From IMG/VR virus record IMGVR_UViG_3300028888_000118: a DNA stretch of 20,000 nucleotides. One strand, 5' to 3'. The notes under the pieces were generated by a model. The model was given only the letters and a program-made list of their open reading frames with translations, ran no database searches and was not told where the DNA came from. The translations under genes were made by a program, and so were the position numbers. Every line of letters begins with the position of its first letter. The first letter of the stretch is position 1. The DNA comes from an uncultured virus (IMG/VR IMGVR_UViG_3300028888_000118). Taxonomy: Duplodnaviria > Heunggongvirae > Uroviricota > Caudoviricetes. Below are positions 3,635-9,536 of the stretch, in pieces.

Positions 3635-3922
3635 TTAAGCCGCATAGAATCTTTCTTTCAGTCGGGCTTCCTGTTCGCGTGTTTCCGGAATGTAATAATC
3701 ATATTCATCAGCTTTGTTACCGTACTTAGTAACTTTGCAGTACCACCAACCATCTGGAAGCGCGATCTGCATCACATAGGCATTCTTGATTGCGTTGAAT
3801 TCGCAATTCTTCATACCACCGACAATCGTATCATAAAGTCTCTTTTCGGTGAATTTCTCACCATTGAAATACCCGCCGATAGCCTGATCAAACAATCTCT
3901 TAGCAGTTTCTTTAAGAGTCAT
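3635..3922 (-). CDS. hypothetical phage protein
   Basis: ATG at 3922 behind GAGGT. The longer ORF call to 3985 would overlap the promoter. Confidence 0.7.
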   Translation of the reverse strand: MTLKETAKRLFDQAIGGYFNGEKFTEKRLYDTIVGGMKNCEFNAIKNAYVMQIALPDGWWYCKVTKYGNKADEYDYYIPETREQEARLKERFYAA

Positions 3923-3967
3923 AAGATACCTCACTTTCTGATCACTCGTCATCTCTCTTACATATAT

Positions 3968-3996
3968 AGTATAGCATATTTGCAAGAAAATGTCAA
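3968..3996 (-). promoter_or_regulatory. sigma-A-type promoter
   Basis: TTGACA-N17-TATACT with extended TG. Confidence 0.88.
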
Positions 3997-4018
3997 GTAG
4001 TTTGCAGAAAATATATAG

Positions 4019-4051
4019 AAAAAATCCTCACAAATAATATGTGAGGATTTT
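4019..4051 (-). terminator. intrinsic terminator
   Basis: AAAATCCTCACA/TGTGAGGATTTT hairpin with U tract, after the stop at 4071. Confidence 0.8.
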
Positions 4052-4070
4052 GTATAATATGTATAAACCA

Positions 4071-4409
4071 TCAATCTATATCTAACCACTCTACGAACTG
4101 TTTCATAACCCTATCATTGATAACATAATAATTTTCGCCGTCACCGAAATCAAACGCAAGAATCGGAAACTGCTTCCCCATTGCAAAACACTGTTCTTCG
4201 ATCTTATCAAGCCATTCCTTCTTAATAGAAACGGACTTCACTTCCGATTCTCGTGTTTTACACTCAATCAGACAATTATTAGATACTACATCACCTTTAA
4301 GGAATGCACTTGATCCACTACTTGTTTGAACTTTGGCATTCAATGCTTTAGCAGTACGTTTTTCATGACGATCACTATAATACCTTGTACTGTTCTTATT
4401 GTTTACCAT
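4071..4409 (-). CDS. PD-(D/E)xK nuclease, putative Holliday junction resolvase
   Basis: HE...A N-terminal helix, SGS..KGDV, LIECKT, SIKKEWLDKI motifs. Confidence 0.75.
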   Translation of the reverse strand: MVNNKNSTRYYSDRHEKRTAKALNAKVQTSSGSSAFLKGDVVSNNCLIECKTRESEVKSVSIKKEWLDKIEEQCFAMGKQFPILAFDFGDGENYYVINDRVMKQFVEWLDID

Positions 4410-6458: not shown

Positions 6459-6542
6459 TGCTACTGACGGGACTTGAACCCGTACTCCGCATCCGGAAGG
6501 GGATTTTAAGTCCCCCGCGTCTGCCAATTCCACCACAGTAGC
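6459..6542 (-). tRNA. tRNA-Leu (TAA)
   Basis: GCTACTG/CAGTAGC, GGGGA-CTTAAAA-TCCCC, long variable arm, A73. Confidence 0.93.
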
Positions 6543-6546
6543 ATAA

Positions 6547-6619
6547 TCGGAGTGACAGGATTTGAACCTGCGACATTCTGGTCCCAAACCAGACGCGCTA
6601 CCGACTGCGCTACACCCCG
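6547..6619 (-). tRNA. tRNA-Pro (TGG)
   Basis: CGGGGTG/CACTCCG, TCTGG-TTTGGGA-CCAGA. Confidence 0.93.
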
Positions 6620-6647
6620 ACATATATAATAAATATTTGTTAAATGA

Positions 6648-6729
6648 TGCGCCTGACAGGACTTGAACCTGCACGGATTTCTCCACCAGAACCTAAATCT
6701 GGCGCGTATGCCAATTTCGCCACAGGCGC
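6648..6729 (-). tRNA. tRNA-Leu (TAG)
   Basis: GCGCCTG/CAGGCGC, CCAGA-TTTAGGT-TCTGG, long variable arm. Confidence 0.93.
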
Positions 6730-6873
6730 GTATAAAATGTTGTGCTTACATGACAGCCTAGAGGTATTCCATACGATCATTAGATCAACCCGACAAACCT
6801 TTAATCTAGGATTTTGTAAAACTTTATCCTTTGTGCTTATAATGCTTAATCTTTATATATACCGTTTTCCAAC

Positions 6874-6929
6874 GGTTTTTGAACTGTAAGATTTTAACTT
6901 TCAACTTTGAGATTTAATACTTGAACTTT
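6874..6929 (-). repeat. in-register 7-nt degenerate array (consensus AAAGTTY)
   Basis: AAAGTTC AAGTATT AAATCTC AAAGTTG AAAGTTA AAATCTT ACAGTTC AAAAACC; further similar units at 6819-6854. Confidence 0.7.
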
Positions 6930-6932
6930 ATA

Positions 6933-6997
6933 TGTCATATGTGGAGTCGAACCACACCGCCGGATTTCCAGTCCAGAGTTTTACCGAAATTATAACA
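6933..6997 (-). tRNA. atypical or pseudo tRNA (anticodon GGA) embedded in the ncRNA
   Basis: TGTTATA/TATGACA acceptor, CTGGA-CTGGAAA-TCCGG, TGTGG-TTCGACT-CCACA; D arm rudimentary; no Ser-type variable arm. Confidence 0.6.
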
Positions 6998-7176
6998 TTC
7001 TTTCCTATTAAAGAAAGTTCAAATCTCCGTTACCTCAATTGTTGGCGAGGTTTCAGTGACTTATTAAATCTCTCTGTTAACGCACAAAGAAAGCGAATCT
7101 AAATTTATGGTTTTCGTCATGCAAGCACAATGTATTTCAAAAATGCTTTCCTAACATTTCCGACAACTTTATTATA

Positions 7177-7827
7177 TCAGCACTCAAATTCAATTACTGT
7201 GGTAGCATTTGAAGTTGAGAGTGCCGCGTCAACTTTCGTGTTGAAGAAATCATATTCTTCTCTAAGTGCTGTGATTTTGTCCTGAACCTTATTCGGATCA
7301 ATAAGATCAATTGTGTTTGCTTCGATGTAAGCGTTTCTTGCGGATTCAATCACATCAGCCTGAATACCTTCCTTGTTTCCAAAAAGTCCGGTAACGTAGC
7401 GATCTGCATAATCAGTAATTGCGTCATTAGTCTTCTTGATTGTGTTCATGCAAACCTTATATTGACTTGCAAGTGTGTTTGCGAGTTTCGCAACAAAGTC
7501 AATACCGACATTCCGGTACTCGATCAGTTCAGCAACGGTCATTGTAACAGTTTCACCGTTATCTCGTGCAATCGTCACCTCTGTAATTGCATTGCTCTTT
7601 GTAATGGCTCTCTTAATGGCATTTCTTCTCCTAATGAGGTCTTCCACCTTCTGCATTGCTGACTTCATGGATACACTGTAATCAGCAATACTCATACCAT
7701 CAATTTTGGTATTTGAGTGCTTAGTAGTGTTTACGTAGACACTCTGAGACATTTCCTTCTCAATTCTGCTTGCAAGTGTTTTAAGTTCCGCAAGACCCTC
7801 GTGAACTGTCATTGTGTACTTCTGCAT
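7177..7827 (-). CDS. helical coiled-coil protein, possibly distantly DIP1984/DUF6847-like
   Basis: 216 aa, GGAGG RBS; MTVHEGLAELK...SNAITEV and MTVAELIE...SNATTVI internal repeat. Family resemblance is from memory only. Confidence 0.8.
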   Translation of the reverse strand: MQKYTMTVHEGLAELKTLASRIEKEMSQSVYVNTTKHSNTKIDGMSIADYSVSMKSAMQKVEDLIRRRNAIKRAITKSNAITEVTIARDNGETVTMTVAELIEYRNVGIDFVAKLANTLASQYKVCMNTIKKTNDAITDYADRYVTGLFGNKEGIQADVIESARNAYIEANTIDLIDPNKVQDKITALREEYDFFNTKVDAALSTSNATTVIEFEC

Positions 7828-7877
7828 AATAAATTCCTCCTAAACTTTAATTCCTTACTAGCTTCTTGCTAGCATAA

Positions 7878-7953
7878 TGGTGGTTAGAGTCCGAGTCGAA
7901 CGAACTTCTGCCGATTTTCAGTCGGCGGCACCAACCGTGTATACCATCTAACC
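7878..7953 (-). tRNA. tRNA-Phe (GAA)
   Basis: GGTTAGA/TCTAACC, GCCGA-CTGAAAA-TCGGC, encoded CCA. Confidence 0.9.
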
Positions 7954-7972
7954 GTTTCTTGATTACAATCAT

Positions 7973-8001
7973 AGTATAACATATTTTCTTAGTTTTGTCA
8001 A
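7973..8001 (-). promoter_or_regulatory. sigma-A-type promoter
   Basis: TTGACA-N17-TATACT with extended TG, ~20 nt upstream of tRNA-Phe. Confidence 0.88.
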
Positions 8002-8022
8002 TACCTTTTCGTGCCAAAGTCA

Positions 8023-8310
8023 TTACAAGTTTTCATCTTGTTTTTGTGCAACATCACTAGACTGTAATTGATCAATAAGAGATTTAAGCCTTACAATCAT
8101 TTCCTGCTTGTCATAAACAGAAATATCAAAATTCTCTGGAATAAAGATCATGTTCGGTTTCTTGTCTGATATACTTTCAATGTGTTTCTTGATAGCGTCA
8201 CACATAGCATAAATTTCTGATTTGGTATATACTAAATCTGTTTTACATGTTACGCACATTACTTCATTGTCTTTTGGTAAAGGTACATTTTTGAATTCAA
8301 ATTCGTACAT
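8023..8310 (-). CDS. hypothetical protein
   Basis: 95 aa, GAGGTG RBS. Confidence 0.7.
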   Translation of the reverse strand: MYEFEFKNVPLPKDNEVMCVTCKTDLVYTKSEIYAMCDAIKKHIESISDKKPNMIFIPENFDISVYDKQEMIVRLKSLIDQLQSSDVAQKQDENL

Positions 8311-8834: not shown

Positions 8835-9536
8835 TTACACAAGCATATCTTTAACTTTCTGATCACTGAGCCATGTAGGAAATTCTTTAAGCAAATCCTG
8901 ATAAGTAATGTTTTCTGCCTTACTTACTGCAAAAAAGTCAGCATTATCCACGTACCGACCTTCCAGATTATCTAGGCTTTCCAGATAGCTAAACTTTGAA
9001 TCACCGAGTCCTACAAATTGCCAGAAAATAGGTTTCTTTGCGGCTTCAATAATTGTTGCTGTTGTATCCGTTTTATCATTGTCGAAATTATCTCCATCTG
9101 TAATAAAAATAACATATACAGGCAACTTCTCATTTTTATAAAATTTAATGATATCTCCCATAACTGGGCTATAGTTTGTTCCGCCCATGCTCTTTCCTTT
9201 TGTTTCCCGCTTAATGTATCCGTCCAGATTATTCAGATTTGCATCTTTAAGTCTACGACAACTATCAGAAAAAAGCCACGTTTCCATACTACCATCATCA
9301 TCAAAGTTCATTGCAAGCGGTAGCATTTTTTCAACAACTCTCTGAACAGTTCCGTTGCTATACAACCAATCCATAGAACCGCTGTAATCAAGAACAAGTG
9401 CTACTTTTGCTTTGAGATCAATTAGTGGCTTCTTGTCAAGACATACTTTATGTACTTCCTCTTTTGCAAGATTCACTTTTTGTACAAGACTTGTTTCATC
9501 ATTGTCTTTTTTCTTGAACATATCAAAAATTCCCAT
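8835..9536 (-). CDS. vWA domain protein (vWA-TerF-like)
   Basis: MIDAS DYSGSM, GGTNYSP, FITDG, PIFWQFVGLG, RYVDNADFF. Confidence 0.88.
   Translation of the reverse strand: MGIFDMFKKKDNDETSLVQKVNLAKEEVHKVCLDKKPLIDLKAKVALVLDYSGSMDWLYSNGTVQRVVEKMLPLAMNFDDDGSMETWLFSDSCRRLKDANLNNLDGYIKRETKGKSMGGTNYSPVMGDIIKFYKNEKLPVYVIFITDGDNFDNDKTDTTATIIEAAKKPIFWQFVGLGDSKFSYLESLDNLEGRYVDNADFFAVSKAENITYQDLLKEFPTWLSDQKVKDMLV

What the first reader, a model, noticed from the sequence alone, without database searches (positions are those of the whole stretch)
6740..7827. Candidate new RNP system: coiled-coil protein gene followed by a ~390-nt nested-stem ncRNA
Seen: about 46 nt after the stop of the 216-aa gene, a minus-strand RNA is closed by a 15-bp stem (UUGUGCUUGCAUGAC 7130-7116 / GUCAUGUAAGCACAA 6754-6740). 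Its single G-U pair only works on the minus strand. Properly nested inside are stems 7091-7082/6836-6827 (10 bp), 7072-7062/6919-6909 (11 bp perfect) and 7022-7014/6929-6921 (9 bp perfect). There is also a GGAA-capped hairpin (6876-6861), a 3' domain (CCUAG/CUAGG, AGGU/ACCU) and a possible pseudoknot from the 5' GAAAACCAUA segment. Gene and RNA lie behind one promoter (7973-8001), flanked by tRNA-Phe and tRNA-Leu, whose processing could release them. Inference: the protein and RNA act together. The RNA does not look to me like tmRNA, RNase P, SRP, 6S or an intron.
Basis: partly seen in the sequence, partly recalled or inferred. Interest (0 to 1): 0.9.

Follow-up and report, generated by a model that had tools for sequence, protein, structure and literature searches.

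The report
Phage structured RNA tied to one gene
A real, intricately folded RNA of about 390 bases follows a small phage gene inside a cluster of tRNA genes, and the same gene-plus-RNA pair turns up in very different phages, including relatives of the laboratory phage T5, so its unknown job can now be tested.

Summary
Window 6740-7130 (minus strand) is a discrete structured RNA, not a chance fold. Its 16-bp closing stem, a three-helix 3' domain and a long-range pseudoknot keep pairing through compensatory changes in 32 relatives: 95.5% of cells paired against 69.8% after shuffling, and 31 of 34 pairs changed on both sides. Between the 5' domain and the 3' domain lie a variable linker, which here holds a sub-threshold tRNA-like element, and two A-rich tracts of 7-nt 'AAAG' repeats. 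RNA libraries of three studies hold contigs that cover just this stretch.

A covariance model of the 3' domain finds one copy downstream of the 216-aa gene (PHROG 1491), on the same strand, in 96 of 96 homologue loci. These include T5-like, Vibrio, Bacillus, Clostridium, Lactococcus, Klebsiella, Aeromonas and Pseudomonas phages. A reverse motif scan found the gene upstream in 76 of 80 loci.

The only catalogued part I found is Rfam RAGATH-27, which matches the 5' ~86 nt in one subclade. The window itself matches no Rfam family except tRNA. The protein has no known fold or family. Physical binding between protein and RNA is inferred, not shown. Closest analogues are the GOLLD and ROOL RNAs.

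The parts
7973..8001 (-). sigma-70-like promoter (TTGACA, 17 nt, TATACT, with TG before the second hexamer) ahead of tRNA-Phe, the gene and the RNA
   Evidence: 11 of 12 consensus matches. This is a consensus match only; 5 sites were found against 6.6 expected in shuffles.
7878..7953 (-). tRNA-Phe(GAA), 50 nt upstream of the gene start
   Evidence: ARAGORN. In many relatives a tRNA lies 27-140 nt upstream of the gene.
7177..7827 (-). 216-aa protein gene, PHROG 1491 (database label 'tail fiber protein', unverified). Predicted as long helical hairpins plus a small four-stranded sheet.
   Evidence: ORF; phrog_1491, E 7.9e-50; AlphaFold2, mean pLDDT 83.3; 710 phage records with homologues
6740..7130 (-). 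the whole structured RNA, from the outer ends of closing stem P1 (391 nt)
   Evidence: RNA-library contigs span 6741-7146, 6741-7116, 6770-7116 and 6827-7156.
7115..7130 (-). P1, 5' strand (UUGUGCUUGCAUGACG)
   Evidence: helix 1 is 99% paired, and 14 of 16 pairs change on both sides. G-U pairs fit only the gene strand.
6740..6755 (-). P1, 3' strand (UGUCAUGUAAGCACAA), directly after the conserved GGC
7104..7114 (-). conserved junction AAAACCAUAAA (family consensus CGAAAACYUUAAAC). It corresponds to the unpaired 5' part of the Rfam RAGATH-27 model.
7096..7102 (-). pseudoknot, 5' strand UUAGAUU
   Evidence: 29 of 32 sequences have at least 7 bp in the same register; 7 of 7 pairs changed on both sides
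6780..6786 (-). pseudoknot, 3' strand GAUCUAA, in the loop of 3'-domain hairpin Pc
7069..7092 (-). local hairpin P2 (UUUCUUU / AGAGAGA), at the position of the family's P2
   Evidence: family P2: 75.7% paired against 59.3% shuffled; 8 of 9 pairs changed on both sides; for the window's own fold. The assignment in the window is inferred.
6933..6996 (-). tRNA-like element in the variable linker: acceptor, anticodon and T arms, a shortened D arm, anticodon loop CUGGAAA
   Evidence: RF00005 at 23.2 bits, below the gathering score of 29; not called by ARAGORN. Relatives carry full tRNAs at this place.
6877..6932 (-). first A-rich tract of 7-nt repeats (YAAAGNN)
   Evidence: AAAG spacings: 7 nt x118, 14 nt x48, 21 nt x16; TRF periods 14 and 21 at 6878-6930
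6861..6876 (-). GGAA-capped hairpin between the two repeat tracts; variable in the family
6821..6860 (-). second A-rich repeat tract
6756..6825 (-). conserved 3' domain: AAAGUUUUACAAAAUCC, then helices Pa (6810-6806/6761-6757), Pb (6800-6798/6764-6762) and Pc (6792-6790/6776-6774), then GGC
   Evidence: model R1; 73.1 bits, E 4.5e-10 in the window; 95.5% paired against 70.0% shuffled; 10 of 11 pairs changed on both sides
6648..6729 (-). tRNA-Leu(UAG), 10 nt after the RNA's 3' end. Its 5' processing would free the RNA's 3' end (inferred).

Best explanation
Window 6740-7130 (minus strand) encodes a discrete, stable, non-coding phage RNA of about 390 nt. It belongs to a widespread class that so far is catalogued only as a fragment.

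Architecture. A 16-bp stem joins its two ends. A 5' pseudoknotted domain and a three-helix 3' domain are locked together by a second, long-range pseudoknot. The large loop closed by this core displays a linker, which holds a tRNA or tRNA remnant in some members, and about a dozen single-stranded 7-nt 'AAAG' repeats.

Expression (inferred from the layout). The RNA is transcribed from the tRNA-array promoter together with tRNA-Phe, the 216-aa gene and the downstream tRNAs. It is probably freed by tRNA-type processing, with P1 protecting its ends.

Coupling. The gene and the RNA form one inherited module: in every homologue locus examined the RNA follows the gene. The most likely reason is that the two work together. 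Either the protein binds the conserved 3' domain or the repeat tract, or it is needed to fold, process or control the RNA. The setting inside tRNA clusters suggests a role in tRNA or translation matters during infection.

Shown: the RNA's existence, fold, strand, presence in RNA libraries, and linkage to the gene. Inferred: the processing route, physical binding, and function.
For: Structure. On a sequence-only MAFFT alignment of 32 RNAs, P1, the pseudoknot and helices Pa, Pb and Pc are 95.5% paired. Shuffled controls give 69.8% (0 of 500 shuffles reach the observed value) and slid controls 34-46%. 31 of 34 pairs change on both sides. On 50 distinct 3' domains the figures are 95.5% against 70.0%, with 10 of 11 pairs compensatory.

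Strand. The invariant or dominant G-U pairs (column pair 20/671 in 32 of 32; 13/678 in 25 of 32) would be A-C mismatches on the other strand.

Expression. In RNA libraries of three studies, contigs cover just this stretch. Two whole contigs run 6741-7146 and 6741-7116.

Forward linkage. Model R1 hits once, downstream of the gene and on its strand, in 90 of 92 sources at E <= 0.01. The other two hit with filters off, at E 4e-4 and 8e-4. All 4 of the most divergent homologue loci hit too, at E 6e-5 to 0.02.

Reverse linkage. 76 of 80 motif-found loci with full flanks have the gene upstream, with the motif starting 267-428 nt after the ORF.

Repeats. AAAG spacing peaks at 7, 14 and 21 nt; TRF reports periods 7, 14 and 21.

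No coding role. There is no minus-strand ORF of 40 aa or more inside 6781-7130.
Against: - No test of binding was possible.
- The protein is mildly acidic (pI 5.1-6.5 in 32 homologues). It has no Pfam, NCBIfam or PADLOC family and no informative fold match. Nothing marks it as an RNA binder.
- The nearest analogues, ROOL and GOLLD, are reported to act without known protein partners (passages read).
- In L061 three ORFs lie between the gene and the RNA, so strict adjacency is not required.
- Many of the 96 loci are near-duplicates: there are 50 distinct 3' domains among 90 hits.
- The RNA ends used for the P1 alignment were picked by a complementarity search. P1's percentage paired is therefore partly by construction, though its fixed position and sequence turnover are not.
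- Contigs cannot show true RNA ends or levels, and no DNA run was laid as a control.
Confidence: 0.55

Rival explanations
1. An RNA-only machine of the ROOL/GOLLD kind. The RNA folds, and perhaps multimerises, on its own and acts without the 216-aa protein. The gene is a neighbour only because both sit in one conserved transcription unit of the tRNA region.
For: The RNA shares with GOLLD and ROOL the phage origin and the position in tRNA islands. With GOLLD it also shares a well-conserved 3' part, a variable 5' part or linker, and tRNAs sometimes embedded in the linker (passages of the preprint read). The double-pseudoknot core suggests a self-sufficient fold. The protein shows no RNA-binding signature.
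Against: A neighbour by accident would not be kept in 96 of 96 loci across phage families whose proteins are only 28-48% identical and whose other neighbours differ. No protein partners had been identified for ROOL, according to the passages read.
Confidence: 0.22
2. A cis-acting 3' untranslated element of the gene. The structure protects the mRNA's 3' end, sets a processing site between the mRNA and the downstream tRNAs, or feeds back on the gene's translation. It has no job of its own.
For: It always lies 3' of the same gene, on the same strand, starting 4-53 nt after the stop. No terminator-like site lies between the gene and the RNA.
Against: A stabiliser does not need 300-460 nt with two pseudoknots, conserved single-stranded repeats and invariant loop sequences. 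In L061 three ORFs separate the gene from the RNA. RNA-library contigs of three studies consist of the RNA stretch alone (weak, since contigs cannot show ends).
Confidence: 0.13
3. A decoy or sponge for a host factor that attacks or handles tRNA or A-rich RNA. Candidates are an anticodon nuclease, an mRNA interferase or an RNA chaperone. The tRNA-like insert and the AAAG (lysine-codon-like) repeats would be the bait, and the protein would be an accessory.
For: It sits inside tRNA arrays. Full tRNAs or anticodon-arm-like hairpins occupy the linker: 3 of 54 RNAs have ARAGORN tRNAs, and 18 of 54 have an anticodon-arm-like hairpin against a mean of 8.4 and a maximum of 16 in 200 shuffles. There are a median of 10 AAAG words per RNA, with 7-nt spacing. 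That phage tRNAs counter tRNA-cleaving defences is from recalled literature, not from a call.
Against: The tRNA-like part is the least conserved part and is absent in most members. In two RNA-library variants the window's 'anticodon' differs, GGA to GAA. No host target is known. This reading does not explain the obligate gene linkage.
Confidence: 0.07
4. A DNA-level element (origin, iterons or packaging site), or decayed tRNA genes with chance hairpins.
For: Short tandem repeats and inverted repeats are typical of origins. A tRNA remnant is present.
Against: The G-U pairs work on one strand only, and the compensatory changes keep pairing rather than sequence. The stretch is found in RNA libraries. 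The element is conserved far beyond the tRNA remnant.
Confidence: 0.03

Closest known systems
RAGATH-27 RNA (Rfam RF03100, an 86-position model)
   Same: In 5 relatives (L001, L019, L027, L065, L078) the model matches at or above its gathering score (77-95 bits against 76.1). The match is exactly the first ~86 nt of this RNA, directly after the gene's stop. Positions the model leaves unpaired correspond to the P1 5' strand plus CGAAAAC..UAAAC. Its single annotated hairpin is the second helix of the 5' pseudoknot.
   Different: The model covers about a quarter of the RNA. It lacks P1's partner strand, the repeat tracts, the 3' domain and the long-range pseudoknot. It misses the window (no hit at E <= 10) and 15 of the 20 diverse loci scanned. 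No searchable text mentions the name. The supplements of the paper I recall as its source could not be read, so what its authors said about neighbouring genes is unknown to me.
GOLLD and ROOL RNAs (large ornate phage RNAs near tRNA islands)
   Same: All are phage-borne, large and pseudoknotted, and sit in or beside tRNA clusters. Like GOLLD, this RNA has a conserved 3' region, a less conserved 5' region or linker, and sometimes a tRNA in the linker (passages read).
   Different: There is no match to either Rfam model. This RNA is smaller: 298-466 nt in the set, against the more than 800 nt the preprint gives for many GOLLD RNAs. It has 7-nt A-rich repeats and an obligate neighbouring protein gene. 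Whether it forms cages like theirs is untested.
Y RNA / YrlA with Ro60 (Rsr) ribonucleoproteins (recalled from the literature, not from a call)
   Same: A non-coding RNA whose 5' and 3' ends form a long stem, with a tRNA-like module in some members, encoded next to the gene of its protein partner.
   Different: There is no Rfam Y-RNA match. The neighbouring protein has no Pfam family and is a 216-aa helical protein, not a Ro60-type ring. The repeats and the 3' domain have no counterpart.
Type III toxin-antitoxin pairs such as ToxIN (recalled)
   Same: A protein gene strictly coupled to an RNA gene made of short tandem repeats. This would explain why the two are never separated.
   Different: Here the RNA lies downstream of the gene, not upstream behind a terminator. 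The repeats are 7 nt inside a large folded RNA. Fold searches gave no ToxN-like match (an absence, hence inconclusive).

Membership tests
RAGATH-27 (RF03100) | score at or above Rfam's gathering score (76.1 bits) | tested here: not met
   The window has no hit, even at E <= 10. Five relatives' loci do reach it, at 77.2-94.7 bits. The window's RNA is therefore a homologue of RNAs whose 5' end is RAGATH-27, but is not itself a recognised member.
RAGATH-27 (RF03100) | conserved 5' sequence (..CGAAAACUUUAAACUA..) followed by a hairpin | tested here: inconclusive
   The window has CGAAAACCAUAAAUUUAGA and aligns column for column with members. The hairpin region is rearranged in the window's clade.
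GOLLD / ROOL (Rfam models) | match to the family covariance model | tested here: not met
   cmscan of 6600-7300 against all 4227 families at E <= 10 lists neither.
GOLLD / ROOL (as a kind) | phage RNA beside tRNA islands; tRNA sometimes inside a variable linker; conserved 3' part | tested here: met
   13 tRNAs in the window. Full tRNAs lie inside the RNA in L007, L002 and L009. The 3' domain is conserved in 96 of 96 loci.
GOLLD / ROOL (as a kind) | RNA-only symmetric multimer (nanocage) | not testable with these tools
   Needs cryo-EM or sizing of the transcript.
tRNA (RF00005), for the insert 6933-6996 | score at or above 29 bits; complete cloverleaf | tested here: not met
   23.2 bits with a shortened D arm; ARAGORN does not call it.
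PHROG 1491 (the protein) | full-length match to the family profile | tested here: met
   E 7.9e-50, residues 4-215 on profile positions 3-210 of 211.
tail fiber protein (the label of PHROG 1491) | a virion tail component | not tested
   No evidence either way from these tools. The gene sits among tRNAs and non-structural genes, and the model is a helical bundle with no tail-fibre match.
Type III toxin-antitoxin | repeat RNA upstream of an endoribonuclease toxin of the ToxN type | tested here: not met
   The RNA lies downstream of the gene. No ToxN-like fold is among the matches, but that absence alone is inconclusive.

The most novel reading that the evidence does not exclude
The gene and the RNA make a new kind of phage ribonucleoprotein. 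A double-pseudoknot RNA clamp displays about a dozen 7-nt AAAG repeats and, in some members, a tRNA. It would work with the helical protein as a particle that captures, shields or delivers tRNAs or translation factors during infection. One example would be a counter-measure to host systems that cut or deplete tRNAs. The module is conserved from T5-like phages of enterobacteria to phages of clostridia, bacilli and lactococci.
Probability: 0.15. Interest if true: 0.9.

Novelty: new variant of a known kind. Interest (0 to 1): 0.8.

Why it matters
Large, highly structured phage RNAs next to tRNA clusters (GOLLD, ROOL) are a long-standing puzzle. They have no known function and no identified protein partners. 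This RNA class shares their setting but adds two things they lack.

- It comes with an obligate neighbouring gene, which gives a genetic handle.
- It is present in easily handled laboratory phages. 440 phage records, mostly of T5-like Escherichia and Salmonella phages and including BF23, match the T5-like version. In most of the 60 records listed, the stretch has no annotation.

Knock-outs, pull-downs and structures are therefore directly feasible in E. coli.

The finding also corrects annotation. In some records the stretch is covered by short 'hypothetical protein' ORFs that are probably spurious. The Rfam entry RAGATH-27 describes only the 5' quarter of the molecule. The 'tail fiber' label of the gene family has no support here.

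Tried and rejected
**DNA and locus searches**
- blastn of the RNA against 50,697 phage records: no match. Relatives were reached only through the protein.
- The search for related loci with the single protein: nothing. The alignment A1 was needed.

**Pairings that did not hold up**
- A third long-range pairing (GUAAAAC after P2 with GUUUUAC of the 3' domain) was rejected: mean best complementarity 5.4 against 5.6 in mismatched controls.
- An all-against-all column scan for covarying pairs was too noisy outside the helices already named.
- RNAalifold on the sub-blocks of the 5' domain and the repeat tract gave no consensus structure on the MAFFT alignment.

**Protein function**
- Pfam, PADLOC and NCBIfam gave only sub-threshold hits. 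One example is L7Ae-like at 15 bits against a cut-off of 113. I treat all of these as chance.
- PDB sequence profile search: nothing below E 1.
- Foldseek against PDB: nothing at E <= 0.001.
- VIA-align: the best match is 3kdq_A (Z 11.2, rmsd 7.2, 151 residues aligned), a protein of unknown function. The rest are generic helical hairpins at Z <= 7.3.
- BFVD and the ESM Atlas returned only uncharacterised phage proteins.
- Longer homologues: three singletons with unrelated domains, probably gene-call fusions.

- No whole genome is held for the window.

**RNA libraries**
- No contig was seen bridging the gene and the RNA. Bins without cover are no evidence.
- Contig depths (RNA-stretch contigs 67, 17, 19 and 7; gene contigs 5.4, 2.9 and 4.6) cannot rank expression.

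**Literature**
- 'RAGATH-27': 0 papers. 'RAGATH' with two other terms: 0 papers. 'RAGATH': 48 papers, of which I saw 15 in the listing, none on this motif.
- Weinberg et al. 2017: passages only, and its supplement was unreadable.
- Fremin et al. 2023: passages only, no mention.
- Searches on T5 or BF23 with non-coding or stable RNA and on new classes beside ROOL and GOLLD found no description.
- A 2026 preprint on tRNA mimics concerns other RNAs (passages).
Full report
**What is in the window**

The minus strand of the window carries a phage-type tRNA array: 13 tRNAs by ARAGORN, 12 of them at Rfam's gathering score. Within it, in order, lie:
- a strong sigma-70-like promoter match (8001-7973, 11 of 12);
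- tRNA-Phe (7953-7878);
- a 216-aa ORF (7827-7177);
- 46 nt of spacer;
- 10 nt of spacer, then tRNA-Leu (6729-6648).

The flagged stretch has no minus-strand ORF of 40 aa or more between 6781 and 7130. It folds far better than shuffles: -104.4 against -77.2 +/- 5.4 kcal/mol, z = -5.04. Against Rfam 15 at E <= 10 it gives only a sub-threshold tRNA match at 6933-6996 (23.2 bits against 29) and chance-level rows. It does not match tmRNA, RNase P, SRP, 6S, GOLLD or ROOL.

**The protein**

The ORF is a full-length member of PHROG 1491 (E 7.9e-50). That family is labelled 'tail fiber protein', but I found nothing to support the label.
- It has no Pfam, NCBIfam or PADLOC family.
- AlphaFold2 on 32 homologues gives a confident model (pLDDT 83.3) of long helical hairpins closed by a small four-stranded sheet.
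- The only solved look-alike that stands out is 3kdq (Z 11.2), of unknown function.
- BFVD and the ESM Atlas return only uncharacterised phage proteins.
- The family is mildly acidic (pI 5.1-6.5).

Homologues occur in 710 phage records. They include T5-like Escherichia and Salmonella phages and phages of Vibrio, Pseudomonas, Bacillus, Klebsiella, Lactococcus, Aeromonas and Clostridium.

**Relatives of the RNA**

blastn of the RNA found nothing, so I went through the protein. An alignment of 32 homologues (A1) retrieved 80 IMG/VR loci. In L005, whose protein is 66% identical, the whole 391 nt aligns at 69% directly after the gene. In loci with proteins only 40-48% identical, blocks of the last ~190 nt still match.

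In lineage after lineage, the sequence just after a conserved GGCUG is complementary to a sequence 4-53 nt after the stop codon. The stems are 12-18 bp, and each lineage has its own sequence. By this strict, ungapped test 75 of 85 loci had the closing stem. Most of the rest have it with a mismatch or a variant GGCUG.

**The fold**

A MAFFT alignment of 32 distinct RNAs of 298-466 nt (A2) shows this order:
1. P1 5' strand;
2. CGAAAACYUUAAAC;
3. a 7-nt segment;
4. hairpin P2;
5. a variable linker;
6. two A-rich repeat tracts;
7. AAAGUUUUACAAAAUCC;
8. helices Pa, Pb and Pc;
9. GGC, then the P1 3' strand.

RNAalifold recovered P1, Pa and Pc, with compensatory changes in 21 of 26 pairs.

The 7-nt segment after the junction pairs with the loop of Pc. 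29 of 32 sequences have at least 7 bp in the same register, with very different sequences: UUAGAUU/GAUCUAA here, CACAAAC/GUUUGUG, UGUAGCAA/UUGUUACA and so on.

Counting P1, this pseudoknot, Pa, Pb and Pc on the unfitted alignment gives 95.5% of cells paired. Shuffled controls give 69.8 +/- 0.9% (0 of 500 reach it) and slid controls 34-46%. 31 of 34 pairs change on both sides, and the pseudoknot scores 7 of 7.

P2 is 75.7% paired against 59.3% shuffled, with 8 of 9 pairs compensatory. Its loop pairs with a segment further downstream to make a second, H-type pseudoknot. I judged this by eye from more than 15 lineages; it is the helix that Rfam annotates in RAGATH-27.

The G-U pairs in P1 fit only the gene's strand, so this is an RNA structure, not a DNA one.

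One caveat applies. I chose the RNA ends by searching for complementarity, which inflates P1's percentage paired. It does not affect P1's constant position or any of the other helices.

**The repeats and the linker**

AAAG occurs a median of 10 times per RNA (range 4-15). Shuffle means for the 22 RNAs printed were 1.4-4.1. The spacing peaks at 7 nt (118 cases), 14 nt (48) and 21 nt (16). Tandem Repeats Finder reports periods 14 and 21 in the window and 7 and 14 in L078. The tracts have no conserved pairing partner, so I take them to be single-stranded.

The linker is the variable part.
- In L007, L009 and L002 it holds a complete tRNA.
- In the window it holds a remnant with acceptor, anticodon and T arms but a shortened D arm.
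- 18 of 54 RNAs have an anticodon-arm-like hairpin there, against a mean of 8.4 and a maximum of 16 in 200 shuffles. This is a modest enrichment.

Two of them (7072-7062/6919-6909 and 7022-7014/6929-6921) are kept with compensating differences in L005, by my reading of the rows. They are specific to that clade. The stem 7091-7082/6836-6827 competes with P2 and has no family support.

**Linkage**

A covariance model of the 3' domain (R1: 85 positions, 11 pairs) hit exactly once in 90 of 92 sources at E <= 0.01. Every hit was on the gene's strand and downstream of the gene. The two misses, both Otagovirus phages of Pseudomonas and Pectobacterium, hit with filters off at E 4e-4 and 8e-4.

Four of the most divergent homologue loci also have it as the top hit in the unannotated gap after the gene, at E 6e-5 to 0.02. 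These are Lactococcus phage 949, Klebsiella KB57, Aeromonas LAh_8 and Salmonella 7-11, with proteins 28-31% identical. That makes 96 of 96, though with many near-duplicates: there are 50 distinct 3' domains among 90 hits.

In L061 three ORFs lie between the gene and the RNA.

In the reverse direction, a consensus pattern scan of IMG/VR gave 101 loci, 80 of them with full flanks. 76 of those 80 have the gene upstream on the same strand. Of the four exceptions, three (L105, and L103 with L150, which gave identical outputs) have no closing stem longer than 9 bp and are probably chance matches. One (L157) has a transposon-type ORF, TnpB-like by my reading, upstream of the motif.

The T5-like version is easy to read by eye. 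440 phage records match it at 89-100% identity, and in most of the 60 listed it has no annotation.

**Expression**

Metatranscriptome runs of three studies hold the stretch. When laid on 6500-8100 they give contigs that consist of the RNA alone:
- 6770-7116 with no differences;
- 6827-7156, followed by letters I recognise (from memory) as Illumina adapter;
- a whole 405-nt contig, 6741-7146;
- a whole 375-nt contig, 6741-7116.

Two studies thus stop at 6741, one base inside the predicted 3' end. Contigs cannot prove ends or levels.

The variant contigs carry 10 differences. Two adjacent ones in the tRNA-like acceptor stem keep pairing (U-A to U-G and U-G to U-A, my reading). One changes the 'anticodon' from GGA to GAA.

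**What is known**

Rfam's RAGATH-27 matches 5 relatives at 77-95 bits, always as the first ~86 nt of the RNA. It matches neither the window nor 15 of the 20 diverse loci. So a fragment of one subclade is catalogued, while the full molecule and its gene linkage are not in any text I could search. The supplement that should describe RAGATH-27 was unreadable.

The closest kind is GOLLD/ROOL. These are phage RNAs near tRNA islands; GOLLD has a conserved 3' region and sometimes tRNAs in its linker; no protein partners had been identified for ROOL, and neither has a known function (passages read).

**Verdict**

The RNA and its coupling to the gene are established computationally. That the two act together is the best reading, at about 0.55. 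It rests on linkage kept across phage families whose other neighbours differ. Binding itself is untested, and the acidic, family-less protein gives it no help. Rival readings are an RNA-only particle (0.22), a cis 3' element (0.13), a decoy for a tRNA-directed host factor (0.07) and a DNA element or chance (0.03).

Because the module is in T5-like phages of E. coli, the decisive experiments are ordinary ones.

Noticed in passing
window 8835-9536 (-): A 233-aa vWA-TerF-like protein (PF10138, E 5e-64; phrog_5359) is encoded between tRNA-Lys and tRNA-Trp, inside the tRNA array.
   Followed up: no
window 6933-6996 (-), variants in runs X3/X4: The tRNA-like insert differs between the window and two RNA-library contigs. 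Two adjacent acceptor-stem changes keep pairing, and the 'anticodon' reads GAA instead of GGA.
   Followed up: partly
L023, L024, L026, L027: about 103 nt upstream of the gene: ARAGORN calls a suppressor-type tRNA (anticodon UUA, 'tRNA-Stop') just upstream of the homologue gene. This hints that these phages read TAA as a residue.
   Followed up: no
L157 (IMG/VR), about 255-972 and upstream: A transposon-type ORF (TnpB-like by my reading of its sequence; no family search was run) lies upstream of the RNA's 3' domain, where the PHROG-1491 gene is expected.
   Followed up: partly
L065 2145-2317 (-): There is an Rfam FuFi-1 RNA match (66.7 bits against a gathering score of 59.6) just upstream of the homologue gene, on the opposite strand.
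   Followed up: no
L195 (Aeromonas phage LAh_8) 1097-1393: A gene annotated as a putative ProQ-type RNA chaperone lies directly upstream of the homologue gene.
   Followed up: no
L001 (Dulem virus 39) 3642-4099; several T5-like records: Short 'hypothetical protein' ORFs are annotated on top of the RNA. They are probably spurious. In L001 an RtcB RNA ligase gene lies about 2.4 kb downstream.
   Followed up: no
L061 3276-5051: Three ORFs (245, 158 and 185 aa) are inserted between the gene and its RNA. This is the only locus of the 96 where the two are not adjacent.
   Followed up: partly
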